55,154 nucleotides of DNA. It comes from Lysobacteraceae bacterium. Lineage in GTDB: Bacteria; Pseudomonadota; Gammaproteobacteria; Xanthomonadales; Xanthomonadaceae. The translations under genes and the position numbers were made by a program. The stretch spans positions 1-55,154 of the forward strand of contig JBIJAD010000001.1 in NCBI GenBank assembly GCA_044345955.1, read 5' to 3'. The notes under the pieces are model-generated. The model saw nothing but the letters and a program-made list of their open reading frames with translations, made no database searches and had not been told where the DNA came from. Every line of letters starts with the position of its first letter. Position 1 is the stretch's first letter. Positions 2,539 to 55,154 of the stretch are shown in pieces.

Positions 2539-2814
2539 CGTGGCGTCCCCTGTGCCGATGACGACGCGGCATCCGGCCGCGACGGGTGGCCGGGAGCGGG
2601 AACCGCGGCGGCAGCGGCGGGATCGCAGGTGTGCGATGCCGGAGCGGCTGCGGCCGTCACGCCCCCGGGCCATGACGCACCCGGTCGATGGACCGGGTCG
2701 CGGCCACGATAGCGCAAAAAAAGCGACGCGTCGCACATTCGGCGGTGGTCACGGGCCACGGCTATCATCCGGGTTCGTCATCGGTGCCGCGCCTTGCGGC
2801 AGGTCGCGGCAGCA

Positions 2815-12130: not shown

Positions 12131-12246
12131 ACCTGTTCCATCTCCACATCCATCTCCAGTCCCTTCCGCATCCGGGTGTCCATCTCGATCTCCCGCTCCG
12201 AACACGGGCGGCATGGGGCGCGCACGGCGGCTTCCGCGTTCAGCAT
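12127..12246 (-). CDS. Possible 39-aa small ORF filling the TE-to-MFS gap
   Basis: ATG at 12246 lies just upstream of the NRPS stop (ATGCTGA); its TGA overlaps the MFS ATG (ATGA); MLNAEAAVRAPCRPCSEREIEMDTRMRKGLEMDVEMEQV. Confidence 0.3.
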   Translation of the reverse strand: MLNAEAAVRAPCRPCSEREIEMDTRMRKGLEMDVEMEQV

Positions 12247-30214: not shown

Positions 30215-30302
30215 TCCATTCCACTCCCGGAGCGGCCGCGGCCGCCCCACTGTCCAAAGTCTGCGGACACGCGCCGGGCGCGTCCGCGTCGTATCCGTTG
30301 TC

Positions 30303-36300: not shown

Positions 36301-39119
36301 TTCGGCAGCGCCACAGGAATCGGCTGCGCCCCGCCCAGCACGCAGGCCCAGAACGCGGTCAGCAACTGACGGTTGCTGGCGAACTGCAGCAGCACGCGCT
36401 GGCCGGGACGCAGACCGGCGGCACGCAGGCCGGCGAGCGCGCGCGCGGCCGCGTCGAGCAGATCGACGTAGCGTTGGGTCGGGCCCTCGCCGCTGGCGTC
36501 GTCGAGATAGGTGATACCGTGCTCGCCATGGGCCTGCGCCGCACGGCGCAGGACGTCGACCAGCGAGAAGGCGGCATGCGGCGTCCGCAGCGCCTCGCCG
36601 ACGGCCAGCGCGGGCGTACCGTCGGCGGCGGTCGTGGCGACGGTCTGCGCACGCGGCACGGGCCGCACGATGGCGAGCGGCGGCGGCGCCGGCGGCTCGC
36701 TCCAGACCGGCTCCAATTGCGCGGGCGCGCAATCGAGCGCGCGCGCGACGGTGTCCAGGGTGTCGGCATCGAGCACCGGCAGCGCGGCCAGCGCCTCCAG
36801 GTCGAGGCGACCGTCGCGCAGGCGCGGCAGACGGCTGACGCAGACCGTGCGGACCAGCGGCGCGAGCACGCCGCCGTGTTCGCGCACCAGCGACTCGAAT
36901 GCACGCGGCGGCAACCTGTGCGCGGGGACGACATGGCCGACCAGACGCCACACGCCGTCGCGATCCTGACGCGGCACGACCGCTGCAGCGGCCACGCCCG
37001 GCAACCGCTGCAGGGCGTCCTCGATCGCGTCCGTGTCCAGCATGCAGCCTTCGACCCAGCCGTGGCGCGCGACGAACCCGTCGACGCACAGGCCCGCGGC
37101 GGTGAGGCGGCCGCGCAGACCGGTGGCGTGCGCCACATCGTCGATGATCAGGCGCAGTTCTCCCGTCGCTTCCGACGGCAGCGCCTCGCCCTGCGCATTG
37201 ACACAGGCGAAAGCGCCGCGGTGACGGACGATGTCGGAGTCGGCATCGACGCGGCGTAGCAGACACGGGCCGTCGGAAGCGGGGATGCCCCAGCATTGCC
37301 AGAGCGCCGGACCGGCGACCGCGGCGGGGCGCGCCGGATCGTCGCCGTGCAGCAGCACGCCGCGGCAGCCTTCGAGCAGGCCGGGGTCGCGCATCGCCGA
37401 GATCTGGACCTGCCGCCACTCGTGCGGCGCCAGCGCCAGCATCGTGGGCGCGTGCCTGCGCAATGCGTCCGGGTCGATCTGCGCCTGCGCGGACGCGGCG
37501 CCGGCCGCGTGCGCCCAGCCGGCGAGCGCGCGCAGCGTGTCTTCCGCCAGCGTCGCGGACGACAGCACGCGATCGTCGGCCTCCAGCGGCAGGTACTCGG
37601 AGAGGAAAGCGGCCGCGTCCTGCGCCGGCGCCACGGCCGGCGCTGCGGCCAACCCGGCCTGCAGGGCGTCGATGCGCACGTCCGGATCGGCGACGACCCG
37701 TTCCAGCACCTCCACGAAGGCGGTCTGCAGGCGCCGGATCATCGCGGCCGGATACAGCGCGGTACGCCAGGTCAGCACCGCATGGTTGTCGTCGGGGCCG
37801 AGAAAGAACTCGAAGATCAGATCGAATTCGCTCGCCCGCCGCGGCAGGTGCACGGGCCGCACCGACAGCCCCGGCAGCACCAGTTCGCTGCTGTCGGTCG
37901 ACTGCAGCGCGAACAGCACCTGGAACAGCGGCGGATGCGCGGCCGAACGCTCCGGCCGCAACGCATCGACCACCTGTTCGAACGGCAGATCCTGATGCGA
38001 GAACGCGTCCAGCGCGGCGCGACGGACCTGCTGCAGGTAGTCGCGGAACGGGCCGGGCCGGACCTGCGAGCGCAACACCACGGTGTTCGAGAACAGGCCG
38101 ACCACCGGGTCGAAGCGCGCCTCGCGGCGGTTCGCCACCGGCGTGCCGAAACTCAGGTCGTCGCTGCCGGACAGCCGCGCCAGCACTACCTTGAAGGCGG
38201 CGGCCAGGACCATGAAGGCGCTGGCCTGTTCGGCCTGCGCCAGGGCATGCACACGCGCGCACAGCGCGGCCGACAGGCTCAGGATCGCCGAATCGGCGGA
38301 CAGGTCGCGTGCGGCCTCCCGCGGCTGCAGGGTCGGCATCGGCCAGCAGGCCGGCGCGCCGTCGAGCGCCGCGGTCCAGTACGCGAGCTGGCGCGGACCG
38401 GCGCTGCGCAGCCAGTCGCGCTGCCAGGCGACGTAATCGCGGTACTGCACTGTCGCGGCCTGCACAGGTGCGGCCGCCGCCGGCGCGGAGCGAGCGGCCA
38501 GCGCATCGGCGTAGGCCTGGCTCAGCTCGCGCTCGATCAGACGCAACGACCAGCCATCGGCGAGGATGTGATGGATCACCGCGATGATGAGGTGTTCGTC
38601 GGCGCCGAGCGCCACGGTCGCGACCCGCAGCAGCGGGCCGCGGGCAAGATCGAATTCCACCGCCACGTGCGCGTCGATCGCGCGCCGCAGCCGGTCGTCG
38701 AAGTCCTGCGCCGGATCGGCGTCGAAGGCGGCGCGTTCGACCGTGATGCCGGCTTCGGACGCGATCCGCGCGCGCGGTTCGCCGTCGACCTCTTCGAACG
38801 TGGTGCGCAGCACTTCGTGCCGGCGCACGAGCGCGTTGATCGCATGCTGCAGCGCGTCCACGTCCAGCGCGCCGCGCACGCGCAGCACCGAAGCGATGTT
38901 GTAGGCGCTGGCGCTGCCCTCGATCTTCTCGAACAGCCACATCCGCTGCTGCGCCGGCGAAAGCGGACCGGGTTCCTGTGGCGCTTCCTGCGCAGACGCC
39001 GGCGCGGCGGACGCCGCGGACGCGGGCGTCGCGGGCGCGGACGCCAGGCCGAGCTTCGCCATCAGCGCATCGCGCTGCCGGGGGGACAGGGCCGCCAGTT
39101 TTCGCTGCAGGTCGTTCAC
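30303..39119 (-). CDS. Depsipeptide NRPS: C-A*(degenerate)-A(alpha-keto acid)-KR-T-E-C, 2938 aa
   Basis: GTG at 39119 after AGAGAG; C HHILADG; A motifs TSGSTGLPK, WMPLDHVGG (Asp235 replaced by Val), AWGMSET, PRTSIGK; KR TGGLGGIG, HAKG, S...YAAAN; T GGDSI; E HHLVIDGVSW, EGHGR, RTVGWFT; terminal C HHCVSDG. Confidence 0.94.
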   Translation of the reverse strand: MNDLQRKLAALSPRQRDALMAKLGLASAPATPASAASAAPASAQEAPQEPGPLSPAQQRMWLFEKIEGSASAYNIASVLRVRGALDVDALQHAINALVRRHEVLRTTFEEVDGEPRARIASEAGITVERAAFDADPAQDFDDRLRRAIDAHVAVEFDLARGPLLRVATVALGADEHLIIAVIHHILADGWSLRLIERELSQAYADALAARSAPAAAAPVQAATVQYRDYVAWQRDWLRSAGPRQLAYWTAALDGAPACWPMPTLQPREAARDLSADSAILSLSAALCARVHALAQAEQASAFMVLAAAFKVVLARLSGSDDLSFGTPVANRREARFDPVVGLFSNTVVLRSQVRPGPFRDYLQQVRRAALDAFSHQDLPFEQVVDALRPERSAAHPPLFQVLFALQSTDSSELVLPGLSVRPVHLPRRASEFDLIFEFFLGPDDNHAVLTWRTALYPAAMIRRLQTAFVEVLERVVADPDVRIDALQAGLAAAPAVAPAQDAAAFLSEYLPLEADDRVLSSATLAEDTLRALAGWAHAAGAASAQAQIDPDALRRHAPTMLALAPHEWRQVQISAMRDPGLLEGCRGVLLHGDDPARPAAVAGPALWQCWGIPASDGPCLLRRVDADSDIVRHRGAFACVNAQGEALPSEATGELRLIIDDVAHATGLRGRLTAAGLCVDGFVARHGWVEGCMLDTDAIEDALQRLPGVAAAAVVPRQDRDGVWRLVGHVVPAHRLPPRAFESLVREHGGVLAPLVRTVCVSRLPRLRDGRLDLEALAALPVLDADTLDTVARALDCAPAQLEPVWSEPPAPPPLAIVRPVPRAQTVATTAADGTPALAVGEALRTPHAAFSLVDVLRRAAQAHGEHGITYLDDASGEGPTQRYVDLLDAAARALAGLRAAGLRPGQRVLLQFASNRQLLTAFWACVLGGAQPIPVALPKTADAQDKDLTKITNAWPALDVAWVLTSRDHDAETARLAQALGLSALPALAIEALLEHAPAGDWHSPDPDDVALLLLTSGSTGLPKAVRQSHRALVSRSAATAQRFGFDHRMVSLNWMPLDHVGGLVMYHLLDVYLGARQFHCATQVVLEQPLRWIEWMSRYRVTNTWAPNFAYAVVNELLAQAGPQDWDLRELDFILNGGESIVPRTARAFLRALAPYGLRPNAMKPAWGMSETCSGVTFNDRFDLDNSADEDSFVVVGAPIPGVSIRIVDAHDRPVAEGCDGRLQLSGPSVTSGYHNNPEATRDAFTTDGWYITGDLAVLRDGQLTITGREKDLIIVNGLNYYGHEIEQVVESVPDVLEAHVAACGVRRRGDNTDRLAVFYCAHERARDNESLRARIARAVLARIGIPVSYLIEMTAEELPRTSIGKIQRPQLAQRFNQGEFDARLAARDGDGLPAWFFEPTWRPLPATGRAVRETGVVLIAGDGAEIAELAAELAARFARAVVVRRGASLRREGEDAFVADTHRPEQLAQVLRTLQQEDARHWRLVLQVAGGGQAGLDALHARWTDVQTQTLSALLAVTQAVIEASDHVAAHFAALDVISERAFALRPGESSDPALGALPGLLRSIAQELPALRCRQIDLDSRTPAMAARAAAEIAALSEHDTVALRDGRRHVRGLRVATTATPTPSVLEDDGLCVVTGGLGGIGQALCEWLLRHSGQHLLVLGRSAPDADPERQPAHARLRATWGARFAYAVQDVCDLEGLQRLLRTHEQTLGLPLRRVWHLAGSLHERTLAEETPAGLLQALHAKGLGALVLHVSLRARPEVEIVHFGSVNGFFGGVGVAGYAAANSLLDALTAHRRAEGGACRCVHWSMWDEIGMSRGYGRQALVAARGYALLDRERGLDSLLPALAAAGGTALVGLEPGNPNTARHLDGAPIGYWRLRPDAAHAAAPPELRDAFGARLAWASDAGAATSATAADAGAMSPLEQQLAAIWQDVLRTPTVGPQANFFELGGDSIMAIQVVARANKAGIAIAPRAVFECQTLRELAQSAGEAGADDADAPLRLGEVPLGPVQRWFFDQTLEDPAHMNQSALLRLRERVEPALLGQALAALTRQHEQLRARFPGDGDALRQVLIEDTEVPLDVVALEDADPADRARALAAHCDRLQAGLDLARGPLVRAGYFLGPDAGDDRLLLVVHHLVIDGVSWRILLDDLENALEQLQRGQAPRLGRRGCAYGEWAAQAVRAAQQLDPATIEHWQRTCAEPTALPAPDRDVPDLRGDETSLEVSLAPQVAQALLQRLPSAWNLGINDLLLAALHQAWQQWSGSPRLLLTLEGHGRGAAAAELDLSRTVGWFTAIYPVALDCDAAAPLQTRARRMQTCLAQVPGEGASWLALRHGGDPAARAALAGCHVPRISFNYLGRFDVDDGRLLAFAGESPGAQISPRQQRLHEIDVVGAVVEDTLRFSFVFSGARYARERIQPFAQAFADALHALAHEAEAPGTRLGSGVDADALRAALRGRGIAPERVEAALRTTPTQTGLIYESEVSGVEGTYVSQLVNELVGPLDTAALRQAWQDVVQRHGVYRSAFLPSRQGHYLQVVLDAVALPWTALDWSDLPVEVQERRFEDLLAQDGARSFVLARAPALRLHLIRMAPDRHRMLISEHHCVSDGWSRGLVLAEVAALYRQHALGRDAALPVPVSFERHVAWLERFDRAAAGRYWREHLHGASPMPAYAGQRTASDDRRAPGTARSSVRLPAAATAALVQAARARRVMLGALVQAAWALTMAAWTGRSDVNFLTTHAGRPPALEGVERIVGPMICTVPVRVDLGAQGSLLDAARRFQSLQADRNEQGYLPLAEACAGFAPDATRAKFDTLFVFENFPLTVPEAKPGELQVAWVRSLDRSDLPLSIMAVPGEALEVVFYYRDDLFDEATIDAIAASFLRVLTLAAQQPEASPDPAVWLDADTRSHIARGLAEREAQAAMRVERSEPASTCTTF

Positions 39120-39144
39120 GTCGGGACTCTCTCTGTGGTGCGGA

Positions 39145-42100
39145 TCACAGCTCGGCCAACAGCCGTTCCAGCTCTTCCGGATCGGTCTGCGCCAGACGCC
39201 GTTCGAACAGCGCGTCGGCCACACCCGCGATCGTAGGCTGGGCGAAGATCGTCTCCACCGGCAGTTCCACGCCGGTGATTTCGTGCAGTCGCGACATCAC
39301 CCGCGTGGCGAGCAGCGACTGTCCACCCAGCGCGAAGAAGCTGTCGTGCAGGCCGATGCCGCGCACGCCCAGCAGTTCCTCCCAGACCGCGGCGACGACG
39401 CGCTGGTTTTCGTCGAACCGGTTTTCGTCGGACCGGTTTTCGTTGGACTGGTTTTCGTCGAGTCGGTTTAGGCCCAGCGTTCCGGGAGCGTCGGCGACCG
39501 CAACAGCCGCCGCGACCGTCGCGGCCGGCGCGTCGGCGACCTCGGGCGGATCGACCCAGCAGCGGCGGCGCTGGAACGGATACAGCGGCATCTGCACCCG
39601 ACGGCCCGGGCGATCGGCGTAGAACGCCGACCACGGCAACTCCGCGCCGCGCGCCCACAGTCCGCCCAGCGCACGCAGCGCAGCGGTGACGCCGTCGGTC
39701 GGGTCGGCGTGCGCCGGCGTCGCCGACAGCACCGCGGCGCGCGTGTCGCCGAGATTGGCCATCACCAGACCCGCGGCGGCCGTGGCCGGACCCAGATCGA
39801 TGAAGACATCGACCGGTTGGCCCAGCGCGGTCTGCACGACATCGGCGAAACGCACCGGCCGGCGCATCTGTTCGACCCAGTAGGCTGGCGTGGCGAGCCG
39901 CGCCGGATCGGCGAGCGCGCCGGTGAGGCAGGAGATGACTGGCAAGGTCGGCGCGGTCATGCGCACGCCGGCGAAGGCTGCGGCGCAACGTTCCAGGATC
40001 GGCTCCAGCATGGACGAATGGAAAGCGTGCGAGGTGCGCAGGATCCGGCCGTCGTGGCCCTGCGCGCGGGCCGCGGCCAGACAGGCGTCGATCGCCGCGT
40101 GCGGACCGGACACCACCGTCGCCGCGGGGCCGTTGGCCGCGGCGATCTCGGCACCGGTACAGGCCGGATCGAGCAGCAACGCCCGCGTCTGCGCCTCGGA
40201 CAACGAGAGCGCGGCCATCGCCCCGGTCGGCAGCGCGTCCATCAGACGGGCGCGCGCGACCACCATCGACAGCGCATCCTCCAGCGTGAATACGCCGGCG
40301 ATGCAGGCGGCGACGTATTCGCCCAGGCTGTGACCCAGCAGCAGATCGGGCTGCACGCCCCAGCGCTGCCACAGCCGCGCCATCGCGTAGCTCGCGACGA
40401 AGATCGCCGGCTGCGCGAGCGCGGTGCGATCCAGCGCGTCGGCCGCGGCGCTGCGGTCCAGCAGCAGCGGTCGCAGGTCGAGGCCGGCCGCGCGCTGCAC
40501 GATCGCGCAGCAGGCGTCGATCGCCTCGCGGTACACCGGATGGGCGCGATACAGATCGGCGACCATGCCCGGCTGCTGCACGCCCTGCCCCGGGAAGACG
40601 AACGCCACGCGCAGGCGGCGGCCGTCGCCGTTCATGACCGTCGCACCGGCGAAGGCGGACCGATCCAGCAGTGCCGCGGCCTGCGCGGCGGAATCGGCGA
40701 CCAGGTAACGACGTTCGGCGAAATGCTCGCGGCCGCAGGCCAGGGTGTAGGCGGCATCGGCCAGCGCGGGCGCGCCATCGTCGCCCAACCGCGCCTGCAG
40801 ACGCGCGGTCGCACGCGCCAGCGTCTCGGCATTGCGCGCCGACCACAGCAGCAACTGCGGGCCGTCGTCCACGGTCGGCGCGACCGGCGGCGCCTCCTCC
40901 AGGATCACGTGCGCATTGGTACCGCCCAGACCGAAGGAACTGACCCCGGCGCGGCGCGGCACTTCGGTCTGCGGCCACGGCCGCAGTCGCGTATTCACTT
41001 CGAAACCGCCGCCGGCGAAGTCGATCGCCGGATTGGGCACGGCGAAATGCAGGCTCGGCGGCAGTTGGCGGTGACGCAGCGCCTGCACGGTCTTGATCAG
41101 TCCGGCGACGCCGGCCGCCGATTCGAGATGACCGATGTTGCCCTTGGCCGAACCGATCGCGCACGGGGCGCGGCCCGGAGCGCGGGCGAACGCTTCCGAC
41201 AGCGCGGCGATCTCGATCGGATCGCCCAGGCGGGTGCCGGTGCCGTGCGCCTCGACGTAACCGATCGATTCCGGCGGCACTTCGGCGAAGGCCAGCGCCT
41301 GACGGATCACGTCGCGCTGACGGTTCACGCTGGGCGCGGTGAAGCCGACCTTGGCCGAGCCGTCGTTGTTGGTGGCGGCGCCGCGGATCACCGCGAGCAC
41401 ATCGTCGCGGTCGCGCAGGGCGTCCTCCAGGCGCTTGAGCACGACCATGCCCACGCCGCTGCCGAATACGGTGCCATTGGCCTGCGCATCGAACGGACGG
41501 CAATGCCCGTCGGAGGAATTGATGCTGCCCGGTTCGTAGAGGTAGCCGCAATCGGTGGCGTTGACCTTGGCGCCGCCGGCCAGGGCCATGTCGCATTCGA
41601 ACGAGATCAGGCTGCGATACGCCATCGTCACCGCGACCAGACCCGACGAGCAGGCGGTGTCGACGCTCACGCACTGGCCGGTCAGGTTCAGTTTGTAGGC
41701 GATCCGGGACGTGGCGTAGCACTTGTCGTTGCCCAGCAGGAGCTGGTGCATGCCCAGCGTGCGCAGCAGATCGGTCCGCGGCAGCAGGTTGTGCAGCAGG
41801 TAGGTGTTGAGGCCGACGCCGGCGTAGATCGCGATCGCGCCGGGATGACGGCCGGCGACGTAACCGGCGCTCTGCAGCGCTTCGGCCGCCGTCTCCAGCA
41901 GCACGCGATGCTGCGGATCGGTGATCTCGGCCTCGCGCGGGGTCATGTCGAAGAACTCGGGATCGAAATCTTCCGCCTGTGGCAGGCGCGCGCCCGCGGC
42001 GACGTAGGCGGGATGCCGGCGCAGTTCCTCCGGCACGCCGGCGGCGATCAGCGCCGCCTCGTCGAAGTGCCGGATCGACTCCACGCCCGCGGCCAGATTG

Positions 42101-42201
42101 GCCCAGAACGCATCGACATCGGCCGCGCCCGGAAAGCGCCCGGCCATGCCGATGATGGCCACGCTCTGGAACGGCGCTTCTTCGTCCATCGTCAGGCTCA
42201 C
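39145..42201 (-). CDS. Type I cis-AT PKS minimal module KS-AT(malonyl)-ACP, 1018 aa
   Basis: GTG start in a GTGA overlap; KS DTACSS, HGTGT, IGHL; AT GHSLG and HAFH; ACP GGQSL; no KR, DH or ER. Confidence 0.96.
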   Translation of the reverse strand: MSLTMDEEAPFQSVAIIGMAGRFPGAADVDAFWANLAAGVESIRHFDEAALIAAGVPEELRRHPAYVAAGARLPQAEDFDPEFFDMTPREAEITDPQHRVLLETAAEALQSAGYVAGRHPGAIAIYAGVGLNTYLLHNLLPRTDLLRTLGMHQLLLGNDKCYATSRIAYKLNLTGQCVSVDTACSSGLVAVTMAYRSLISFECDMALAGGAKVNATDCGYLYEPGSINSSDGHCRPFDAQANGTVFGSGVGMVVLKRLEDALRDRDDVLAVIRGAATNNDGSAKVGFTAPSVNRQRDVIRQALAFAEVPPESIGYVEAHGTGTRLGDPIEIAALSEAFARAPGRAPCAIGSAKGNIGHLESAAGVAGLIKTVQALRHRQLPPSLHFAVPNPAIDFAGGGFEVNTRLRPWPQTEVPRRAGVSSFGLGGTNAHVILEEAPPVAPTVDDGPQLLLWSARNAETLARATARLQARLGDDGAPALADAAYTLACGREHFAERRYLVADSAAQAAALLDRSAFAGATVMNGDGRRLRVAFVFPGQGVQQPGMVADLYRAHPVYREAIDACCAIVQRAAGLDLRPLLLDRSAAADALDRTALAQPAIFVASYAMARLWQRWGVQPDLLLGHSLGEYVAACIAGVFTLEDALSMVVARARLMDALPTGAMAALSLSEAQTRALLLDPACTGAEIAAANGPAATVVSGPHAAIDACLAAARAQGHDGRILRTSHAFHSSMLEPILERCAAAFAGVRMTAPTLPVISCLTGALADPARLATPAYWVEQMRRPVRFADVVQTALGQPVDVFIDLGPATAAAGLVMANLGDTRAAVLSATPAHADPTDGVTAALRALGGLWARGAELPWSAFYADRPGRRVQMPLYPFQRRRCWVDPPEVADAPAATVAAAVAVADAPGTLGLNRLDENQSNENRSDENRFDENQRVVAAVWEELLGVRGIGLHDSFFALGGQSLLATRVMSRLHEITGVELPVETIFAQPTIAGVADALFERRLAQTDPEELERLLAEL
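39403..39469. repeat. In-frame 15-bp tandem repeat, about 4.5 copies (c[ct]ggttttcgt[ct]g[ga]a)
   Basis: ctggttttcgtcgaa / ccggttttcgtcgga / ccggttttcgttgga / ctggttttcgtcgag / tcggttt; encodes NRLDENQSNENRSDENRFDENQ. Confidence 0.9.
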
Positions 42202-48200: not shown

Positions 48201-49223
48201 CTCGATGCCGTCGCCGAAGGCGCGGCTGAGCGCCGAAACCTCGATCGGATCGCCGAGGATGGTGCCGGTGCCGTGCGCCTCGACGTAGCCGATGGTGGCG
48301 GGATCGACGTCGGCGCGCGCCAGCGCGTCGTACACGACCTCCACCTGACCGTCGATGCTGGAGGCGGTGTAGCCGAGCTTGAGCGAACCGTCGTTGTTGA
48401 TCGCGCTGCCCAGGATCACCGCATGGATGTGGTCGCCGTCGCGCAGCGCGTCTTCCAGGCGCTTGAGCGCGACGATGCCGGCGCCGTTGCCCTTGACCGT
48501 GCCCTGGGCGCGGCTGTCGAACGGCCGGCAGTGCCCGTCGGGAGAGACGATGCTGCCTTCGCTGTAGAGCATGCCGACCTTCTGCGGCACATCGAGACTG
48601 ACGCCGCCGGCCAGGGCGATGTCGCACTCGTAGGACAGCAGGCTCTGGCAGGCCTGATGCACCGCGACCAGCGAGGTCGAGCAGGCGGTGTCGACGTTGA
48701 CGCTCGGCCCGCGCAGGTTGAGCTTGTACGACACCATCGTGGTCGCGAAGCTCTTTTCGTTGCCGATCGACATGCGCAACTGGCCGACCGATTCGATCAG
48801 CTCGGGGTTGGCGCTGAGATTGCGCGCGAAGTAGGACATCGAACCCACGCCCGCGTACACGCCGACGTGGCCGGCGTAGTCGTCGGAGGAGTAGCCGGCG
48901 TCGTCCAGCGCCTCGTAGCAGCACTCCAGCAGCATGCGGTGCTGCGGATCGGTGATCTCGGCTTCGCGCGGGCTGAACTGGAACAGTTCGGCGTCGAAGT
49001 CCTCGATCCCGTCGACCACGTAGGACACCTTGACGAAGTCCGGATGCGCGATCAGGCGCTCGGATACGCCCTCGCGGCGCAGGGTCTCGTCGTCGAGCAC
49101 GGTGGAACTCTCCACGCCGCCGACCAGATTGCGCCAGAAAGCGTCGACGTCGCCGGCGCCGGGGAAGCGGCCCGACAGGCCGATGATCGCAACACGGTTC
49201 GCATCCATCTTCATGTCATCCAT
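42198..49223 (-). CDS. Hybrid PKS-NRPS: KS-AT(malonyl)-ACP-Cy-A(Cys)-Ox-T (thiazole-forming), about 2341 aa
   Basis: KS DTACSTS, HGTGT, IGHL; AT GHSLG and HAFH; ACP GGDSL; Cy FPLTDIQQAY, DILLVDAWS, PIVFTS, SQTSQVWLD; code DLYNVSAIWK; Ox RRSFREY..KYRYASAG; start 49223 (49214 or 49208 possible). Confidence 0.95.
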   Translation of the reverse strand: MDDMKMDANRVAIIGLSGRFPGAGDVDAFWRNLVGGVESSTVLDDETLRREGVSERLIAHPDFVKVSYVVDGIEDFDAELFQFSPREAEITDPQHRMLLECCYEALDDAGYSSDDYAGHVGVYAGVGSMSYFARNLSANPELIESVGQLRMSIGNEKSFATTMVSYKLNLRGPSVNVDTACSTSLVAVHQACQSLLSYECDIALAGGVSLDVPQKVGMLYSEGSIVSPDGHCRPFDSRAQGTVKGNGAGIVALKRLEDALRDGDHIHAVILGSAINNDGSLKLGYTASSIDGQVEVVYDALARADVDPATIGYVEAHGTGTILGDPIEVSALSRAFGDGIEPGACAIGSVKSNIGHLDIAAGVAGLIKTVQMLRHRQIPPSINYDAPNPNIDFERSPFRVNAGLRDWPSGDGPRRAGVSSFGIGGTNAHVIVEEAPARHSAPSNRDSHLLTVSARSRPALERQLARMSAHFAAHPDTDLADAAYTLRVGRRDYEHRAAVVVPGGGDAAALLAEPRAVVFGGPVRQSPKLCLMFPGQGAQHAGMLKDLYRAEPAFRAELDLCADAFRRELGEDLREVIFGEDDARLNRTALTQPALFAAEYALAKCWESHGIQADAMIGHSLGEYVAACLSGVMGFDDAVALVAERARLMDALPRGAMLMVPLAEDEVQAYLSPACSLAAVNGPRICVLSGQEEAIAQVEAGLAEQGVDTRRLHTSHAFHSAMMTPILARFGERVSRVRLSPPTRPYLSNVSGDWIRAEQATDPQYWVDHLRGTVRFGDGLRRVLDDPDYVLLEAGPNQVLTTLARRSFGATERSVASARHPQNPRHDREAFLQALGTLWTLGCRPDWSVLYRGEARRRVSLPGYAFDRKRYWIDAQGRSSREDAATQAAASAPRADHAPARPANLEQALLALFRQAFGVESIGLSDQFFELGGDSLLATQLTAVVRDQLGVQLRLADLYEYPRLSDLLACLEARGASIDAAAPLTRLTRIEPDLAGRNQPFPLTDIQQAYWVGRSGAIELGDVATHIYLEVDIKHGELARFVDAWNVLIGRHDMLRAVFLASGEQQILAQVPHYEFDVIELQGLPEDQAEAQRMALRAKMSHQVLPADQWPLFDIKALRADAHRFRLCISIDILLVDAWSMNMLIEQWLQLYRQPALELPPIAFSFRDYVIAEHALQETELYRTSEQYWFERIDRLPAAPDLPLAVAPSSLTNPHFARRMYQMEKQRWAKLKQRAVSSGLTPSGLLMAAFSQVLGRWAGNPHFTINLTMYARHPFHEQVDQIVGDFTSLTLLEVDNRPGPFLEHAERVQRQLWSDLDHRYVSAIHVLREASRRAGSRVSMPIVFTSTLGVRTLEHESDELDELGEEVFGVSQTSQVWLDHQVMEWKGQLRFNWDAVDALFPEGMIQDMFDTYCALIERLVDEDALWQADIGEQLLPAHHAALFDRVNATAVDNGIDLLHRQFERQALATPQLTALIADGRTLSYEELLRRAQGLGAELREAGVDRAGLVAIFLEKGWEQIVAVMGILTAGGAYLPVDPALPDERVAYLLESSGVKVVASAAAHLPRLAALAPHCRLLDVQTAALAPAGAPLLEPVQSLDDLAYVIYTSGSTGKPKGVMVPHRGAANTVADINRRLALSAEDRVFALSALNFDLSVYDIFGTLCRGAALVMPRPQDLRDPARWSELVQTHRISVWNSVPALMQILVDHCADTGVVLDPALRAVVLSGDWIPPALPERMAALWPQTAVLGAGGPTECSIWSACHPVQPEDWRKDSIPYGKPLENQQIHILDERRRTCPIWVPGELYVAGDGLALGYLGDREKTDALFVHHPVTGQRLYKSGDLGRYTPSGDIEFLGRNDFQVKVNGYRVELGEVEAALKQCGEFKEVVVVAAQEPGRKNRSRLVAYLVGHGAAPDAATAEAPAVSAETVDPIQAQLVEFKLTKPGLRRTRDGETMLPLPATARDAAAWRLRRSFREYLGDTLTLGRLAEVLQNLSELQNEDMPLPKYRYASAGSLHAVQVYLYVKPGRIEGLEGGYYYYQPEQHALVRLAGEEPLTVAQYGVGENPLVFDRAAFSLFFVGERNAIVPVYGEETGDRFLHVEAGYMAQLLMECSPAQRVGLCPIGYLGDDLPRLLGLQSSQMIVHSLVGGSVSQEQLDNWGARPPARGPAAAVDNDALRERLRTMVPEYMVPAAFVRLDKLPLTANGKVDRRALSEVVEAEKPVRSVVPPRNEVEGQLLRIWQEALGVAEIGVEDNFFELGGDSVLIVRMHKQLKALYGERISVVDLFRYPKIAALAAYLAETPAAAESAPAAAAAAANEAAQVDRRKAAMQRQRQLAMNGADS

Positions 49224-52200
49224 TGCGTTTTCTGTTCTTGAGGTGCTGGCGGGTCCGGGCGACCGCATCGCGGCCTTCGCGCACCCGGTTCGACGGCATC
49301 GCGGCCGTGTTCGATGCGTTCTCCCGCTGACCGATCAGCCGGGTCAGGCTGTCGATGGTGGGGAACTTGAACAGCTCGATGATGCTGATCTCGCAGTCGA
49401 AGCGTTCGGCGAGGCGGCGCTGCAGCGTGCCCAGCAGCAGCGAATGACCGCCCAGCTCGAAGAAGTTTTCGTTCACCCCGACGCGCTCGATCTGCAGCAG
49501 TTCGCACCACAGTTCCGACAGCGCCCGCTCGAGGTCGGTGCGCGGCAACTGCAGCGCGGCGCGCGCCTGGTTCTGGAACGGCGCCGGCAGCGCCTTGCGA
49601 TCGATCTTGCCGTTGGGCGTGAGCGGCATCGCCGCGAGTTCGACGATCGCCGAGGGCAGCATGTGCGCGGGCAGCCTCTGGGCCAGGTGCGCATGCAACG
49701 CGGCGGTGTCGAGGGCATCGGCGCCGACGGGCGTGCAGTAGGCGACGATCGCCGCGTCCTGCGGCGCGGCGCCGCGGACCACCGCGACCGCCTCGGCCAC
49801 CGCCGGATGCGCGCGCAGCGCGGACTCGATCTCGCCGAGTTCGATCCGGTAACCGCGCACCTTGACCTGCTGGTCGACGCGGCCGAGAAACTCGATGCCG
49901 CCTTCGGCCGTACGCCGCACCAGATCGCCGGTGCGATACATGCGTTCGCCCGGCATCGGCGCGAACGGATCGGGCAGGAAGCGCTCGGCGGTGAGGTCGG
50001 GACGCTGCCAGTAGCCGCGGGTCACGCCCTCGCCGGCGATGTACAGCTCGCCCTTGATCCCGACCGGCTGCTGGCGCAGGCGCGCGTCGAGCACGTACAG
50101 GCGGGTATTGCTGATCGGTGCGCCGAGGGTGGTCTCGGCATCCTGCAGGTGGCGGACCGCCGACCAGACCGTGGTCTCGGTCGGACCGTACATGTTGAAC
50201 AGGTGGGCGCCGGTGGCTGCGCGCAATTCGCGCGCGACCTCCGCCGGCAGGGCCTCGCCTCCGACCAGGAAACCGCGGAGGTTGGCGAGCGACTGGCTCT
50301 GCTTCTGCTCCAGCAGCAGCCGCGCGAACGAGGGCGTGCACTGGATATGGGTCGCGTTGACCCGGATATCGACGCGCGCCTGCCCCTCCGCCCCGGCGGC
50401 GACCCGATCCGCCTCGCGCTTGCGGCGCGCATGTTCGGTCACGGTCAAACGACGCAGCCGGTCCAGTTGCGGGAAGCTGTCCGTCACCTGCGCGGGAGCG
50501 ACGCCGAAATCGACCAGACAGGCGATCTCGTCCACGCCGATGGCGTGGATATCGGCCAACAGCGACTGGCAGCTCTCGGGCGTCCCGAACAGCGCACCGG
50601 TGGCGAAGTAACGGTTGAAGCCGGCCTCGACCACCAGCTCCAGATCGTTGCCGGCGTCCAGACCATTGCTTTCGGCGACCGGCTTGAGCAGGTTGATCGA
50701 ACTGCGCAGGTACGCCTTGAACGGCTCGCGCACGGCTGCACGCACCGTGTCCACGTCCTCGCCGATGAACGTGTGCAGCATCAGCGTGACCTGGCCCGCG
50801 TCCGGACAGTGGCCGTGCTCGGCGCGCGCCGTGCGGTAGATCTCGATCTTGGCGCGCAGTTCCGGCAGGCTCTGGCCGAGCAGGTGGGTCAGCACGTTGG
50901 CGCCCAGTTCGCCGGCCTGACGGAAGGTCTCGGGGCTGGCCGCTGCGGTGATCCACACCGGCAGCTCGGGCTGCACCGGGCGCGGGCGCACGCCCACGCG
51001 CGCCGGATTGCCCAGGCCATCGGTACGTTCGATGGTCTCCCCCTTCCACAACCGGCGCACGGTATCGATGCCTTCGCGCAGCACGCGGTGGCGCTCGGCG
51101 AAGTTCTGCGGCGCCAGCACGAAATCGTTGAAGTGCCAGCCCGACGCGAACGCCACCGCGGCGCGGCCGTGCGACAGGTTGTCCACCATCGACCATTCCT
51201 CGGCGACCCGGATCGGGTCGTGCAGCGGCAGCACCACGCTGCCGGCGCGCACCTGCACGTTGCGGGTGACCGCCGCGACCGCGGCCGCGGCCACCGAGGG
51301 GTTCGGGAACTGGCCGCCGAAAGCGTGGAAATGCCGCTCCGGCACCCAGACCGCGCTGAAACCGTGGCTATCGGCGAAACGCGCGCCGTCGAGCAGCAGT
51401 CCGTACTTGTCGACCTGCGCGTCCTCGTCGGCGGCGAAGTAGAACAGCCCCATCGTCAGCGGCCGGGCGCGCACGGGCGTGTCCGCCGCCGGTCTGGCGC
51501 GCGCGTCCGCGACCGCGCCGGCCGGGGTCTGCCCGGCGTGGGTGAGCGTGGTGAGATGATCGGTCTGGAGCAGGACGTGATGACCGCGCGCCAGCGTCCA
51601 CAGCAGCTCGAGGACCGAGATGTCGAAACTGATGCTGGTCAGCGCGGTCCAGACCGGACGGCCGTCGCCGTCCTGCGGCAGCGAGGGCGCCAGACTGCGG
51701 TCCAGGCCCTCGAACAGGTTGACCACGTTGCGGTGGGTGACGACGACGCCTTTGGGCTTGCCGGTCGATCCCGAGGTATAGATGACATAGGCGGCGTTGT
51801 CGCTGCAGCCGCCGTCATCGAACGCCGCGGCACGCACGCCGTCCAGTGATTCCAGCGCCAGCACCGGCGCGGCCACGGCGGGCACGCGCGCGGCGGCCTC
51901 GCCGGCGGTCACCAGACAGGCCAGTCCGGCGTCGGCGGCGATGTGGACGATGCGATCGGCCGGATAGTTCGGATCCAGCGGCACATAGGCCGCGCCGGCG
52001 GCGAGGATGCCCAGCAGCGCGACCACCATCGCCGGCGAACGGTCGATGTACACGCCCACCCGATCCTCGACGCCGACGCCGCGCGCGCGCAGCGCAGCGG
52101 CCAGGGCATCGGCCCGCGCGATCAGCGCGTCGAAGGAAACATCCTCGTCCTCGAAGCTCACCGCGATCGCATCCGGCATGCGCCGCGCCTGTGCGCGGAT

Positions 52201-53799
52201 CAGTTCGTGCACGCGGGCCAGACGATCGTAGTCCAAGGCGGTCGCGTTCCAGTCCGCCTGCTGCGCCCGCTCCGCATCGGTCAGCAGATCGAGTTCGGCC
52301 AGCGGGCGCGCCGGCGCCTGCGCGATCTGTTCGAGCAGGCGCACGAAGTGCGCGCCCATGCGTTCGATCGTGGCCTGCTCGAACAGCGCGGTGGCGTACT
52401 CGAATCCGGCGACGGTGCGCGCGCTGCCGCGCTCCACGGTCAGGGTCAGGTCGAACTTGGAGATGCCGTTGTGGGCGAACAGCGGCTCCACCTCCAGACC
52501 GTTCGGCAGACCCAGCTCCGCGGCCTCCTTGAGGATGAACATCACCTGGAACAGCGGCGAATAACTCAGGCTGCGGCGCGGATGCAGGTGTTCGACGATC
52601 TGCTCGAAGGGGAATTCCTGGTGCTCGTCCCCGGCCAGCGCGGTGTCGCGCACCTGTCCGAGCAGGGCGATGAAGTCGCGCGCCGGTTGCGGCGCCAGAC
52701 GCATCACCATCACGTTCGAGAAGAAACCCAGCACCTGCTGCCACTGCGCGAGGCGGCGGTTGGCCACCGGCGTGCCGATCGCCAGATCGTCCTGACCGGT
52801 ATAGCGCTGCAGCAGCGCACCGAAAGCGGCCAGCAGCAGCATGTACAGGCTCGCGCCCTGCGCCTGCGCCAGTGCGGTCAGCCGGGCGGTCAGCGCCGGC
52901 GGCAGTTCGAAGTGGACCACATCGCCGGCATAGCCCTGCACGGCAGGACGCGGATGGTCGACGGGCAGTTCGATCAGGTCCGGCAGGCCGGCCAGACGTT
53001 CGACCCAGTACTGCTTCTGGCGGGCGAAACTTTCGCTGTTCTGCCAGCGCGCCTGCCAGTCGACGTAATGGCCGTGGCCCGCGGTCAGCGCCGGCAGCGC
53101 GTCGGCAGCGCCGCCGGCCAGCGCCCACAGGTCGCGCACCAGCAGCTCCATCGAGCGGCCGTCGGACACCAAATGGTGCATGGTCAGCAGCAGGGCATGA
53201 TCGTCGGGCGCCAGCCGCACCAGCGCGCCGCGCAGCAGCGGCGCCTGCTCCAGCGCGAACGGGGCGCGCGCCTGGGCGTCGATCTGCGCGCGCAGGGCGG
53301 ACTCGCGCGCGTCTTCCGGCAACGCTTCCAGCGAGACGACTTCAAGCGCGAGCGCGGCATCGGGGTCCCGATGCGGCAGGTACTCGCCGTCGACCAGCCG
53401 GAACGACGATTGCAGGGCATCGTGCCGGCGCGGCAGCGCGGCGAAGGCGGCGCGCAGCGCGTCGACATCCAGCGCACCGCGCAGGCGCCAGGCCATCGGC
53501 AGGTTGTAGGCCGCCGAATCGCCATCCATGCGCTGCAGAAAGAGCAGCCGGCGCTGTGCGAAAGACAGGCCATCGCCGTCCGTCGCCGGTGCGTCGCCCG
53601 CGTCCGCCGCGGCAACGTCCTCGACCCCGCTCCGCGTCGCCTGACGCAGGGCCGCGATCAGCTCCGGCTTGTGTTCGATCATCCGCTGCTTGAGCGCAGG
53701 ATCGAGCGCGCGCGGCGCGGCGAAGCGCAGGTTGCCGTCTTCCACCCAGAGGCGGACGTTGAGCTCGCGCAGTTCGCGCAGCAGTTCATGCAGACTCAT
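49216..53799 (-). CDS. NRPS: betaHD dock-C-A(Gly) interrupted by luciferase-like monooxygenase-T, 1527 aa
   Basis: ATG at 53799 (ATGA overlap); C HHLVSDG; code DILQLGMVWK; LLM insert (GLFYF..ARFADSHGFSAVWVPERHFHAFGG..PLHDPIRVAEEWSMVDNLSHGR) between A4 and A5; T GGHSL; no TE. Confidence 0.95.
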   Translation of the reverse strand: MSLHELLRELRELNVRLWVEDGNLRFAAPRALDPALKQRMIEHKPELIAALRQATRSGVEDVAAADAGDAPATDGDGLSFAQRRLLFLQRMDGDSAAYNLPMAWRLRGALDVDALRAAFAALPRRHDALQSSFRLVDGEYLPHRDPDAALALEVVSLEALPEDARESALRAQIDAQARAPFALEQAPLLRGALVRLAPDDHALLLTMHHLVSDGRSMELLVRDLWALAGGAADALPALTAGHGHYVDWQARWQNSESFARQKQYWVERLAGLPDLIELPVDHPRPAVQGYAGDVVHFELPPALTARLTALAQAQGASLYMLLLAAFGALLQRYTGQDDLAIGTPVANRRLAQWQQVLGFFSNVMVMRLAPQPARDFIALLGQVRDTALAGDEHQEFPFEQIVEHLHPRRSLSYSPLFQVMFILKEAAELGLPNGLEVEPLFAHNGISKFDLTLTVERGSARTVAGFEYATALFEQATIERMGAHFVRLLEQIAQAPARPLAELDLLTDAERAQQADWNATALDYDRLARVHELIRAQARRMPDAIAVSFEDEDVSFDALIARADALAAALRARGVGVEDRVGVYIDRSPAMVVALLGILAAGAAYVPLDPNYPADRIVHIAADAGLACLVTAGEAAARVPAVAAPVLALESLDGVRAAAFDDGGCSDNAAYVIYTSGSTGKPKGVVVTHRNVVNLFEGLDRSLAPSLPQDGDGRPVWTALTSISFDISVLELLWTLARGHHVLLQTDHLTTLTHAGQTPAGAVADARARPAADTPVRARPLTMGLFYFAADEDAQVDKYGLLLDGARFADSHGFSAVWVPERHFHAFGGQFPNPSVAAAAVAAVTRNVQVRAGSVVLPLHDPIRVAEEWSMVDNLSHGRAAVAFASGWHFNDFVLAPQNFAERHRVLREGIDTVRRLWKGETIERTDGLGNPARVGVRPRPVQPELPVWITAAASPETFRQAGELGANVLTHLLGQSLPELRAKIEIYRTARAEHGHCPDAGQVTLMLHTFIGEDVDTVRAAVREPFKAYLRSSINLLKPVAESNGLDAGNDLELVVEAGFNRYFATGALFGTPESCQSLLADIHAIGVDEIACLVDFGVAPAQVTDSFPQLDRLRRLTVTEHARRKREADRVAAGAEGQARVDIRVNATHIQCTPSFARLLLEQKQSQSLANLRGFLVGGEALPAEVARELRAATGAHLFNMYGPTETTVWSAVRHLQDAETTLGAPISNTRLYVLDARLRQQPVGIKGELYIAGEGVTRGYWQRPDLTAERFLPDPFAPMPGERMYRTGDLVRRTAEGGIEFLGRVDQQVKVRGYRIELGEIESALRAHPAVAEAVAVVRGAAPQDAAIVAYCTPVGADALDTAALHAHLAQRLPAHMLPSAIVELAAMPLTPNGKIDRKALPAPFQNQARAALQLPRTDLERALSELWCELLQIERVGVNENFFELGGHSLLLGTLQRRLAERFDCEISIIELFKFPTIDSLTRLIGQRENASNTAAMPSNRVREGRDAVARTRQHLKNRKRNG

Positions 53800-55154
53800 A
53801 GCACGCCCACCTCGGAATCGTCGTCGGCCGTCTCGTCGCGTGCGCCATCGGCGCCGCCGGCCATCCATTGCAGGTTGTCGATGTGATCGGCCAGATCGGC
53901 CAGCCGCGGATGCAGAAATACGTCGCGCAGGGTGCTGCGCACGCCGAATACCTCGGCGATGCGCACGTTCAGCGCGGTCGCGAGCAGCGAATGACCGCCG
54001 GCCGAGAAGAAGCTGTCCTGACGGCCGACGCGACGCACGCCCAGGATCGCGCACCACAGTTCGGCCAGCCGCTCTTCGGTGCGGGTCGCCGGCGGCTCGA
54101 AGGCGTCGGAGTCCGCATCTTCCAGCGGCAACTGCGACAGCGCCCTGCGATCGACCTTGCCGTTGGCGGTCAACGGCAGCGCGTCCAGCAACAGCATCCG
54201 CGCCGGGATCATGTACTCGGGCAATTGCTGCGACAGCGCCGTGCGCAGCGTCGCTTCCGACTGCTGCGCGTCGGCCGCGAGGTGTACGTAGGCGACCAGC
54301 AGGTCGCGACCGTCGTCGCGCTTGCGCACCGTCGCGATCGCCTCGCGCACGCCGGGGCAGATGCCGATCGCACGCTCGATCTCGCCCAGTTCGATGCGGA
54401 AGCCCCGCAACTTGACCTGATGATCGGCGCGGCCCAGGTAAGCCAGGCGGCCATCGGGCAGATGACGCACGATGTCGCCGGTACGGTACAGGCGACCGCC
54501 GCTGCCGAAGGGATCGGGCAGATAGCGCTCGGCGGTCAGATCCGGACGGCCGAGATAACCGCGCGAAACACCGGCGCCGGCCAGATACAGCTCGCCGCGC
54601 GCGCCCGGAGGCACCGGCAGCATCTGCGCATCCAGCACATAGGCGCGGGTGTTGTCGATCGGAACGCCGATACTGGGCGCGTCGCTGCCGGTCTCCTCGA
54701 CGCGGCAACCGGTCGAATAGGTGGTGTCTTCGGACGGGCCGTAGAGGTTGTACACCGCCTCGACATGGCCCTGGCGATAGAGCCGGTCGACCAGACCACG
54801 CGCCAGCGCCTCGCCCGCCAGGTTCACCACCCGTACCGAAGCCGGCAGCGCGCCGGCCGCGAGCACCGCATCGATCGCCGAAGGCACGGTGTTGACCAGG
54901 GTCACCGGCACGCGCGGCGGCTGTTCGACCAGCGCCAGCGCGTCGCGCACCAGGACCACGGTGTTGCCGGTCGCCAGCGGCAGGAACAGCTCGTATACCG
55001 ACAGATCGAAGCAGATCGAGGTGCTGGCCAGGGTATGGCGCAGCGCCTGCGGCTCGAAGATGCGGCGCGCCCAGGCCAGCATCGCCACCGCATTGCCGTG
55101 GGTGATCGCCACGCCCTTGGGCAGTCCGGTGGAACCGGAGGTATAGATCACGTA
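53796..55154 (-). CDS. NRPS C-terminal part, A(Ala)-T (5'-truncated by window edge)
   Basis: YTSGSTGLPKG; code DLYNNALTYK (Ala); T GGHSL; acidic C-terminal docking tail DDDSEVGVL. Confidence 0.93.
   Translation of the reverse strand, partial: YVIYTSGSTGLPKGVAITHGNAVAMLAWARRIFEPQALRHTLASTSICFDLSVYELFLPLATGNTVVLVRDALALVEQPPRVPVTLVNTVPSAIDAVLAAGALPASVRVVNLAGEALARGLVDRLYRQGHVEAVYNLYGPSEDTTYSTGCRVEETGSDAPSIGVPIDNTRAYVLDAQMLPVPPGARGELYLAGAGVSRGYLGRPDLTAERYLPDPFGSGGRLYRTGDIVRHLPDGRLAYLGRADHQVKLRGFRIELGEIERAIGICPGVREAIATVRKRDDGRDLLVAYVHLAADAQQSEATLRTALSQQLPEYMIPARMLLLDALPLTANGKVDRRALSQLPLEDADSDAFEPPATRTEERLAELWCAILGVRRVGRQDSFFSAGGHSLLATALNVRIAEVFGVRSTLRDVFLHPRLADLADHIDNLQWMAGGADGARDETADDDSEVGVL

What the first reader, a model, noticed from the sequence alone, without database searches (positions are those of the whole stretch)
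49216..53799. Gly A domain interrupted by a luciferase-like monooxygenase, internal to the line and without a TE
Seen: an LLM domain of about 340 aa (about 50450-51460) sits between A4 (FDIS) and A5 (NMYGPTE) of a Gly-coded A domain (DILQLGMVWK); the protein ends at T and the next gene begins with an intact KS. Established: in MtaG/MelG (myxothiazol/melithiazol) this arrangement is terminal, with a TE, and is proposed to hydroxylate Gly C-alpha to release a primary amide. Inference: here either alpha-hydroxyglycine is retained and extended by a PKS (an N-acyl hemiaminal alpha to a ketone), or the upstream chain is released as an Ala-amide and the leftover glyoxylyl unit primes the downstream PKS, giving two products from one line.
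Basis: partly seen in the sequence, partly recalled or inferred. Interest (0 to 1): 0.85.

Follow-up and report, generated by a model that had tools for sequence, protein, structure and literature searches.

The report
Glycine-hydroxylating module feeding a ketosynthase
One glycine-loading step in the middle of a bacterial peptide-polyketide assembly line carries a built-in oxygen-adding enzyme that likely leaves a fragile hydroxyglycine link in a predicted lipopeptide for which I found no report; the layout is real, but it is common in genomes and has published precedents.

Summary
Observation confirmed. Gene 49216-53799 (-) is dock-C-A(a1-a4)-LLM-A(a5-a10)-T, with a Gly code, an intact TIGR04020 monooxygenase (50452-51450) and no TE. 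It overlaps an intact hybrid-type KS gene. It is module 4 of an orphan lipodepsipeptide line also found in Pseudoduganella, Lysobacter, Pseudoalteromonas and Stenotrophomonas. The layout is not rare: only 3 of the 120 closest proteins carry a TE, and in 21 of 62 genome loci a KS follows. Internal retention of alpha-hydroxyglycine is published for solanimycin SolF (inserted at a8-a9, not a4-a5). Comparative hints favour tailoring over mid-line release: the LLM is missing from otherwise matching lines, some relatives add an FkbM methyltransferase, and some follow a bare fatty-acyl starter. Best reading (0.55): Gly C-alpha hydroxylation, kept and extended by the KS into an N-acyl hemiaminal next to a ketone. 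Two products via glyoxylyl priming is not excluded (0.17). I found no paper on an a4-a5 module feeding a KS, or on this product. This scan noted the same layout before on other DNA (e1-3892040). Verdict: new variant of a known kind, interest 0.5.

The parts
49216..53799 (-). NRPS gene g1 (P0001, 1527 aa): dock-C-A(Gly, split)-LLM-T, no TE
53641..53790 (-). TubC_N-type N-terminal docking domain (res 4-53)
52261..53568 (-). Condensation domain with intact HHLVSDG (res 78-513)
51562..52197 (-). A domain N-part, a1-a4 (res 535-746; FDIS at 725)
50452..51450 (-). Luciferase-like monooxygenase TIGR04020 (res 784-1116; PERHFH motif, ERH at nt 51331-51339)
49606..50385 (-). A domain C-part: code position 278, a5-a10 (res ~1139-1398); no insert between a8 and a10
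49333..49524 (-). T domain (GGHS, Ser1453)
49219..49332 (-). Basic C-terminal tail, of the same kind as the tail of g2, which also precedes a KS (likely docking element, inferred)
53796..55154 (-). End of upstream NRPS g0: A(Ala, DLYNNALTY)-T; its stop overlaps the ATG of g1; cut by the contig end
42198..49223 (-). g2: KS-AT-ACP-Cy-A(Cys-like, DLYNVSAIW)-Ox(nitroreductase fold)-T; no KR; hybrid-type KS
39145..42201 (-). g3: KS-AT-ACP, no KR
30303..39224 (-). g4: C-A*(degenerate)-A(keto-acid type)-KR-T-E-C
19715..30250 (-). g5: dock-(partial C)-A(Phe)-T-E-C-A(Thr)-T-C-A(Asp-like DLPRVGHVG)-T
12240..19718 (-). g6: dock-C-A(Ser-like)-T-C-A(Asp-like DIPRVGHVG)-T-TE; the only TE in the core genes
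10760..12214 (-). MFS transporter
8890..10692 (-). Beta-lactamase-family serine hydrolase with a hydrophobic C-terminus
7848..8801 (-). Cupin_8/JmjC-type oxygenase
5722..7614 (-). Alpha/beta hydrolase (TAP-like)

Best explanation
This module loads a residue with a glycine code onto its T domain behind an upstream Ala module, and its embedded flavin monooxygenase likely hydroxylates the glycine C-alpha of the tethered peptide, which the adjacent KS would then extend without cleavage. SHOWN: the domains, intact catalytic motifs, Gly code, absence of a TE, coupling to an intact hybrid-type KS, and conservation of this junction in orthologous clusters. INFERRED: FMNH2 comes from a host reductase (none seen in the cluster); C-alpha is the site (from MtaG/MelG and SolF); the hydroxyl survives transfer. 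With no KR in g2, the product would contain R-CO-NH-CH(OH)-CO-CH2-thiazole, an N-acyl hemiaminal next to a ketone. The predicted product is acyl-Ser-Val-Ala-Gly(OH)-ketide-thiazole-ketide-(hydroxy acid ester)-D-Phe-Thr-Asx-Ser-Asx, released or cyclised by the single TE. As with solanimycin A/B, hydroxylation may be partial. The link could open after release to a primary amide and an alpha-keto-aldehyde.
For: (1) The LLM looks functional: above the TIGR04020 cut-off, models as a full barrel matching PuwE 6KET (TM 0.93, rmsd 2.0), and is more conserved than its surroundings in orthologues (82 vs 72%, 79 vs 67%, 62 vs 51%). (2) 60 of 62 LLM-split A domains have a full Gly-type code and 2 are partial, whichever domain follows: KS 21, C/dock 10, E 7, A 3, none or unknown 21. 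This points to Gly as the substrate. (3) Precedent for internal retention: solanimycin B has alpha-hydroxy-Gly from SolF, and the step can be skipped (PMC10204066); some Dickeya SolF lack the domain (PMC9765074). (4) The cassette is absent in matching lines: L018 (a4-a5 463 aa) vs L061/L062 (69% identical up to a4; 123 aa, a possible scar), L071 (119 aa), and LLM-less Gly A-T genes beside the same KS clade (L068, L070, L072, L075). (5) 12 of 120 homologues carry an FkbM methyltransferase family hit, 10 with the motif just after a8 in the same A domain; this fits capping of a kept OH (inferred). (6) In L008 and L011 the module directly follows a FAAL-like starter, where cleavage would release only a fatty amide. 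(7) The KS has the NRPS-accepting signature and groups with NRPS-following KSs.
Against: No product or enzyme assay is available. This protein has no methyltransferase (a8-a10 is 86 aa), so the hemiaminal would be uncapped. Its LLM is 61% identical to that of a TE-terminated MtaG-like protein (P0088), so sequence does not separate retention from release. The only studied a4-a5 examples (MtaG, MelG) cleave. I found no LLM-less member of this particular family, so the LLM may be essential here. The E-domain hint is weak: E follows 7 of 52 LLM-bearing and 1 of 20 LLM-less Gly modules. The Gly-code uniformity is partly built into the query, which included a4 and a5. The FAAL on contig C19 is split over two frames, so this genome's copy may be inactive.
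Confidence: 0.55

Rival explanations
1. Mid-line oxidative release: the carbinolamide collapses on the T domain, freeing acyl-Ser-Val-Ala-NH2, and the remaining glyoxylyl unit primes the KS. One line then gives two products.
For: Same insertion site and a 61%-identical LLM as a TE-terminated MtaG-like module. No capping methyltransferase. Zwittermicin and the sarpeptins are said to form amides in a similar way (bioRxiv 2024.10.28.620694), and zmaLM are called cleavage genes (PMC9586298). That the zwittermicin leftover is extended further is recalled, not read (one search failed). The LLM is present in every member of this family that I examined.
Against: No positive sequence sign of it. LLM-less variants of related lines persist. 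FAAL-directly-to-Gly(LLM)-KS lines would release only a fatty amide. An aldehyde-bearing acyl group would meet the KS Cys and then the Cys aminothiol of the next module (chemical inference). Solanimycin shows that cleavage is not obligatory.
Confidence: 0.17
2. The LLM acts one step later, on the beta-keto (4-amino-3-oxo) thioester on the ACP of g2, alpha-hydroxylating C2 or oxidising it to a diketone, as MupA, OocM and the MxgE oxygenase do.
For: The closest solved relative is the PKS-associated PuwE oxygenase (E 2e-116). MupA needs a beta-keto ACP-bound substrate (PMC10952193). MxgE alpha-oxidises a PKS-extended amino acid (PMC13638107). g2 has no KR, so that substrate would exist.
Against: Only 21 of 62 such modules are followed by a KS; the rest are followed by C, E, a reductase or nothing, so the shared substrate is more likely the Gly. 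Solanimycin MS places the oxygen on Gly C-alpha.
Confidence: 0.12
3. The LLM is inactive or mostly skipped, and plain Gly is extended.
For: Solanimycin A skips the step. One homologue (L058) has a decayed LLM. No flavin reductase was seen among the cluster genes annotated.
Against: The motifs are intact, the LLM is the best-conserved part among orthologues across several genera, and MupA also borrows a host reductase.
Confidence: 0.08
4. Hydroxylation is followed by further change: over-oxidation to an oxalamide/imide, alpha-ketol rearrangement, or capture of the N-acyliminium by an internal nucleophile to give a cyclic N,O- or N,N-acetal.
For: MxgE's oxygenase goes on from alpha-hydroxy to alpha-keto. 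The predicted motif is reactive (chemical inference), and the peptide has Ser/Thr nucleophiles.
Against: No dedicated enzyme or motif points to it; this is pure inference.
Confidence: 0.08

Closest known systems
MtaG / MelG (myxothiazol, melithiazol) C-A-MOX-A-T-TE; also fischerazole FshJ
   Same: Gly-coded A domain with a flavin monooxygenase between a4 and a5 (PMC10204066; PMC11411415; PMC13548996; passages read).
   Different: Here the module is internal, has no TE and is followed by a KS; in MtaG/MelG the chain leaves as an amide and the TE clears glyoxylate.
Solanimycin SolF module 4 (Dickeya solani)
   Same: Internal Gly module with an embedded monooxygenase and no TE; alpha-hydroxy-Gly is kept, the step is skippable, and the domain is absent in some strains.
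   Different: The SolF insert is at a8-a9, not a4-a5, and the acceptor is an NRPS C domain (SolG), not a KS.
Corallorazine-like clade I clusters (MOx in the Gly A2 domain, 38 pathways)
   Same: Gly A domain with an added MOx, noted as a genome-mining variant (PMC11342130).
   Different: Short dipeptide lines that end there; the authors predict truncated products; no PKS hand-off.
PuwE oxygenase (PDB 6KET), MupA/OocM (TIGR04020 family)
   Same: Same enzyme family and fold, same PERHFH motif; alpha-hydroxylation of carrier-bound thioesters shown for MupA.
   Different: They are not inside an A domain, and they act on polyketide-derived acyl chains.
Zwittermicin ZmaL / sarpeptin amide formation
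   Same: Precedent for monooxygenase-driven amide release (one sentence in bioRxiv 2024.10.28.620694; zmaLM named as cleavage genes).
   Different: ZmaL is a separate protein (recalled). I could not read the primary papers (one search gave only a listing), so module positions are unverified.

Membership tests
MtaG/MelG-type amidative release module | Gly-specific A domain | tested here: met
   code DILQLGMVW(K)
MtaG/MelG-type amidative release module | Monooxygenase inserted between a4 and a5 | tested here: met
   a4 at 725, LLM 784-1116, a5 at 1202
MtaG/MelG-type amidative release module | Terminal module with TE after T | tested here: not met
   no TE, 36-38 aa tail, six more core genes' worth of modules downstream
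MtaG/MelG-type amidative release module | Product released as a primary amide | not testable with these tools
   needs chemistry
SolF-type internal alpha-hydroxyglycine module | Internal Gly module with embedded flavin monooxygenase, no TE | tested here: met
SolF-type internal alpha-hydroxyglycine module | Insertion between a8 and a9 | tested here: not met
   a8-a10 is 86 aa with no insert
SolF-type internal alpha-hydroxyglycine module | Downstream acceptor is a C domain | tested here: not met
   acceptor is a KS
SolF-type internal alpha-hydroxyglycine module | Hydroxyl kept in the product | not testable with these tools
   product unknown
TIGR04020 MupA/Atu3671 LLM family | Score above the curated cut-off | tested here: met
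   491 vs 244.45 bits
TIGR04020 MupA/Atu3671 LLM family | Luciferase-type barrel with conserved motif | tested here: met
   model vs 6KET TM 0.93, rmsd 2.0; PERHFH
TIGR04020 MupA/Atu3671 LLM family | Partner flavin reductase available | tested here: inconclusive
   none among the cluster genes annotated; genome not searched for one; MupA's cluster also lacks one
Zwittermicin-type mid-line cleavage | Stand-alone monooxygenase acting in trans (recalled) | tested here: not met
   the LLM is embedded in the A domain
Zwittermicin-type mid-line cleavage | Two or more products from one line | not testable with these tools
   needs metabolomics

The most novel reading that the evidence does not exclude
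The embedded monooxygenase cuts the line in the middle: it frees an acyl-Ser-Val-Ala amide and leaves glyoxylyl on T, which the next KS accepts as a primer. This would build a thiazole depsipeptide capped with an alpha-keto-aldehyde warhead, the first glyoxylyl-primed ketosynthase and a self-splitting NRPS-PKS. A milder form: the macrocycle carries the hemiaminal as a masked 1,2-dicarbonyl that is unmasked on ring opening.
Probability: 0.17. Interest if true: 0.8.

Novelty: new variant of a known kind. Interest (0 to 1): 0.5.

Why it matters
A-embedded monooxygenases are usually read as amide-release devices, yet among this protein's nearest relatives nearly all lack a TE. Genome-mining predictions for a large set of proteins (7448 hits at E<=1e-100, not all checked for layout) may therefore be wrong. 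What decides retention versus cleavage of the carbinolamide is open. This cluster family has cultured carriers (Pseudoduganella flava, Pseudoalteromonas sp. T1lg23B, Stenotrophomonas nematodicola), which makes the question directly testable. The family also predicts a lipodepsipeptide scaffold with a reactive hemiaminal-ketone link for which I found no report.

Tried and rejected
Rejected: artefact or fusion by misassembly (same layout in orthologues); a hidden TE after T (tail too short); rarity of TE-less forms. A KS-based metagenome scan for LLM-less orthologues was too unspecific: 1 of 79 loci (L096) was a true orthologue, and it has the LLM. Genome samples found family members in 3 of 121 Pseudoalteromonas genomes (open frames 1501 aa, same as the LLM-bearing query gene) and 4 of 400 genomes in the family of G004; the odd-length hit G1195 also has the LLM. 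A keto-acid-module search in 401 phylum genomes gave no further family member above 40% identity. A KS tree (quick method only; the careful search did not finish) shows KSs after Gly-LLM modules as polyphyletic (9 changes), so there is no KS clade specific for an oxidised substrate. The E-domain contrast was weak. Literature: 10 searches found no a4-a5 module feeding a KS and no product for this family; the Lundy 2020 survey mentions MOx only in passing. The zwittermicin cluster paper was not held. A per-domain identity table was not obtained. No complex prediction or read mapping was run.

Full report
1. Observation. The minus-strand ORF 49216-53799 encodes 1527 aa. Pfam and NCBIfam give dock-C-A(N part)-LLM-A(C part)-T and no TE. 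The LLM is residues 784-1116, nt 50452-51450, scoring 491 bits against a 244-bit cut-off for TIGR04020. It lies between a4 (FDIS, 725) and a5 (NMYGPTE, 1202), stretching that interval to 479 aa from the usual 93-106. The code is DILQLGMVW(K), which is glycine by established A-domain codes. An AlphaFold model of residues 525-1495 (77-sequence alignment, mean pLDDT 86.9, pTM 0.68) has both units folded and a disordered linker before the LLM. The LLM superposes on PuwE 6KET (TM 0.93, rmsd 2.0); the relative orientation of the two units is uncertain. The next gene starts 8 nt inside the stop codon. Its KS keeps Cys-His-His in the window and in the 4 orthologues aligned, and has the signature typical of KSs that follow NRPS modules (the signature is from my own knowledge).

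2. The line. In the window: A(Ala)-T | C-A(Gly,LLM)-T | KS-AT-ACP-Cy-A(Cys)-Ox-T | KS-AT-ACP | C-A*-A-KR-T-E-C | A(Phe)-T-E-C-A(Thr)-T-C-A(Asp-like)-T | C-A(Ser-like)-T-C-A(Asp-like)-T-TE, then an MFS transporter, a serine hydrolase, a cupin and an alpha/beta hydrolase. The A-KR unit's best PDB match is 6ULW (E 3.5e-169); I recall that entry as a keto-acid-activating A-KR, so an ester-forming hydroxy-acid module is inferred. The upstream part probably lies on contigs C19 (TEII-like gene, FAAL-ACP-C-A[Ser]) and C233 (T-C-A[Val-like]). This rests on similarity to orthologues; the contigs do not overlap, and the FAAL is split over two frames. Complete orthologous clusters in Pseudoalteromonas sp. 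T1lg23B and Stenotrophomonas nematodicola start FAAL-like, Ser, Val/Thr, Ala, Gly(LLM), KS. P. flava and a Lysobacter MAG match the core. Stenotrophomonas lacks the thiazole/second-KS block and differs downstream.

3. How common is the layout? The domain after T is KS in 21, C or dock in 10, E in 7, an A of the next gene in 3, and none or unknown in 21. None had a TE directly after T by my window-derived TE profile. Six have tails of about 400 aa, and the four I inspected are reductase-type. A protein search gave 7448 hits at E<=1e-100 among 7998 scored; 3 of the best 120 carry a TE and 12 an FkbM methyltransferase. Both sets are biased towards this protein, so they show that TE-less forms are abundant, not their true share. 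Per genome the family is uncommon: TIGR04020 is over the cut-off in 8 of 400 genomes of this class, this genome included. Earlier AI notes in this scan describe the same layout on other DNA; they are not independent evidence.

4. What is in print. I read passages, not whole texts. PMC10204066: MtaG/MelG have the FMO at a4-a5 and cleave; SolF has it at a8-a9, is internal, and solanimycin B keeps alpha-hydroxy-Gly while A skips the step; skyllamycin uses a stand-alone FMO. PMC9765074: some Dickeya SolF lack the domain. PMC11342130: MOx in the Gly A domain of 38 corallorazine-like pathways. PMC13548996 calls this A-domain type rare and its proposed steps speculative. PMC11411415 and bioRxiv 2024.10.28.620694 restate the MtaG model; the latter adds the sarpeptins and zwittermicin. 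PMC10952193: MupA needs a beta-keto ACP substrate and an outside reductase. PMC13638107: MxgE alpha-oxidation. PMC8341866, PMC10127204 and PMC9586298 added little. The primary myxothiazol, melithiazol, sarpeptin and zwittermicin papers and the 2015 review of interrupted A domains were not seen, and no supplements were read; one of these could already list an internal a4-a5 example. Ten searches found no a4-a5 module handing to a KS and no product for this cluster family.

5. Mechanism. That the LLM is active and acts on Gly is supported by its conservation above the flanking A domain in orthologues and by the Gly code in 60 of 62 relatives whatever follows (the code uniformity is partly built into the query). 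For retention rather than release: the SolF precedent; absence of the cassette from matching lines, with what looks like a scar (L018 vs L061/L062, L071) and LLM-less Gly A-T genes beside the same KS clade; an FkbM motif after a8 in 10 of the 12 FkbM-bearing relatives; and FAAL-directly-to-Gly(LLM)-KS lines, where cleavage would free only a fatty amide. Against: there is no capping enzyme in this protein; the LLM is 61% identical to one in a TE-terminated module; no LLM-less member of this family was found; L018 and L061/L062 differ downstream, so they are not a clean pair; and E after Gly is only weakly tied to the LLM (7 of 52 vs 1 of 20), although all 7 E domains have intact motifs. I put retention at 0.55, mid-line release with glyoxylyl priming at 0.17, oxidation of the PKS-extended intermediate at 0.12, inactivity or skipping at 0.08, and further oxidation or cyclisation at 0.08.

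6. Verdict. It works like SolF in likely outcome and like MtaG in architecture, and is a full member of neither. It is a new variant of a known kind: real, intact, conserved, and common as a layout, but uncharacterised in the papers I could search, in an orphan cluster family with cultured carriers. Interest 0.5; 0.8 if mid-line cleavage with glyoxylyl priming proves true.

Noticed in passing
window 30303-39224 (-): Keto-acid-type C-A*-A-KR-T module followed by an E domain with an intact HHxxxDG, placed straight after a KR-less PKS module; conserved in all five clusters compared. An E domain after a hydroxy-acid module is unusual to my knowledge.
   Followed up: partly
window ~20450-21500 and ~13800-14840 (-): Two A domains with an Asp-like but odd code (DLPRVGHVG / DIPRVGHVG), also in the P. 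flava and Pseudoalteromonas clusters; a cupin/JmjC oxygenase lies nearby. Substrate unknown.
   Followed up: no
G000:C19:~3400-3490: The FAAL-like starter that probably belongs to this cluster is split over two reading frames: an assembly error or a broken gene. Reads were not checked.
   Followed up: partly
G000:C467:2510-3541 (+): A second TIGR04020 LLM in the same genome, between a C and an intact A domain (AT-T-C-LLM-A-T), 50% identical to the window's LLM.
   Followed up: no
L018:2579-13714 vs L061:2612-11308, L062:2609-11308; L071:2-1810; L058: Natural LLM gain/loss pairs at the a4-a5 site, with 20-30 extra residues left in the LLM-less forms; L058 has a partly decayed LLM.
   Followed up: partly
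L005:7850-14938, L006:7784-14926: Gly A domain with an LLM and (L005, Pfam) a methyltransferase, between heterocyclisation modules, in Pseudoalteromonas holothuriae and Pseudoduganella rivuli.
   Followed up: partly
L002 / G002:C13 (Pseudoalteromonas sp. T1lg23B): The orthologous Cys module is split from Cy and lacks the Ox domain (thiazoline instead of thiazole predicted); the Phe A domain is split over two ORFs.
   Followed up: no
window 8890-10692 (-): Beta-lactamase-family serine hydrolase with a hydrophobic C-terminus; similar genes follow the P. flava and Pseudoalteromonas clusters. Only a weak match to ClbP (E 7e-8); could be a maturation or resistance peptidase.
   Followed up: partly
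window ~39400-39470 (-): Short 5-residue repeat (DENxx-like, four copies) in the AT-ACP linker of g3.
   Followed up: no
window 2794-5097 (+): Double-AAA ATPase with an N-terminal hydrophobic region just outside the cluster.
   Followed up: no
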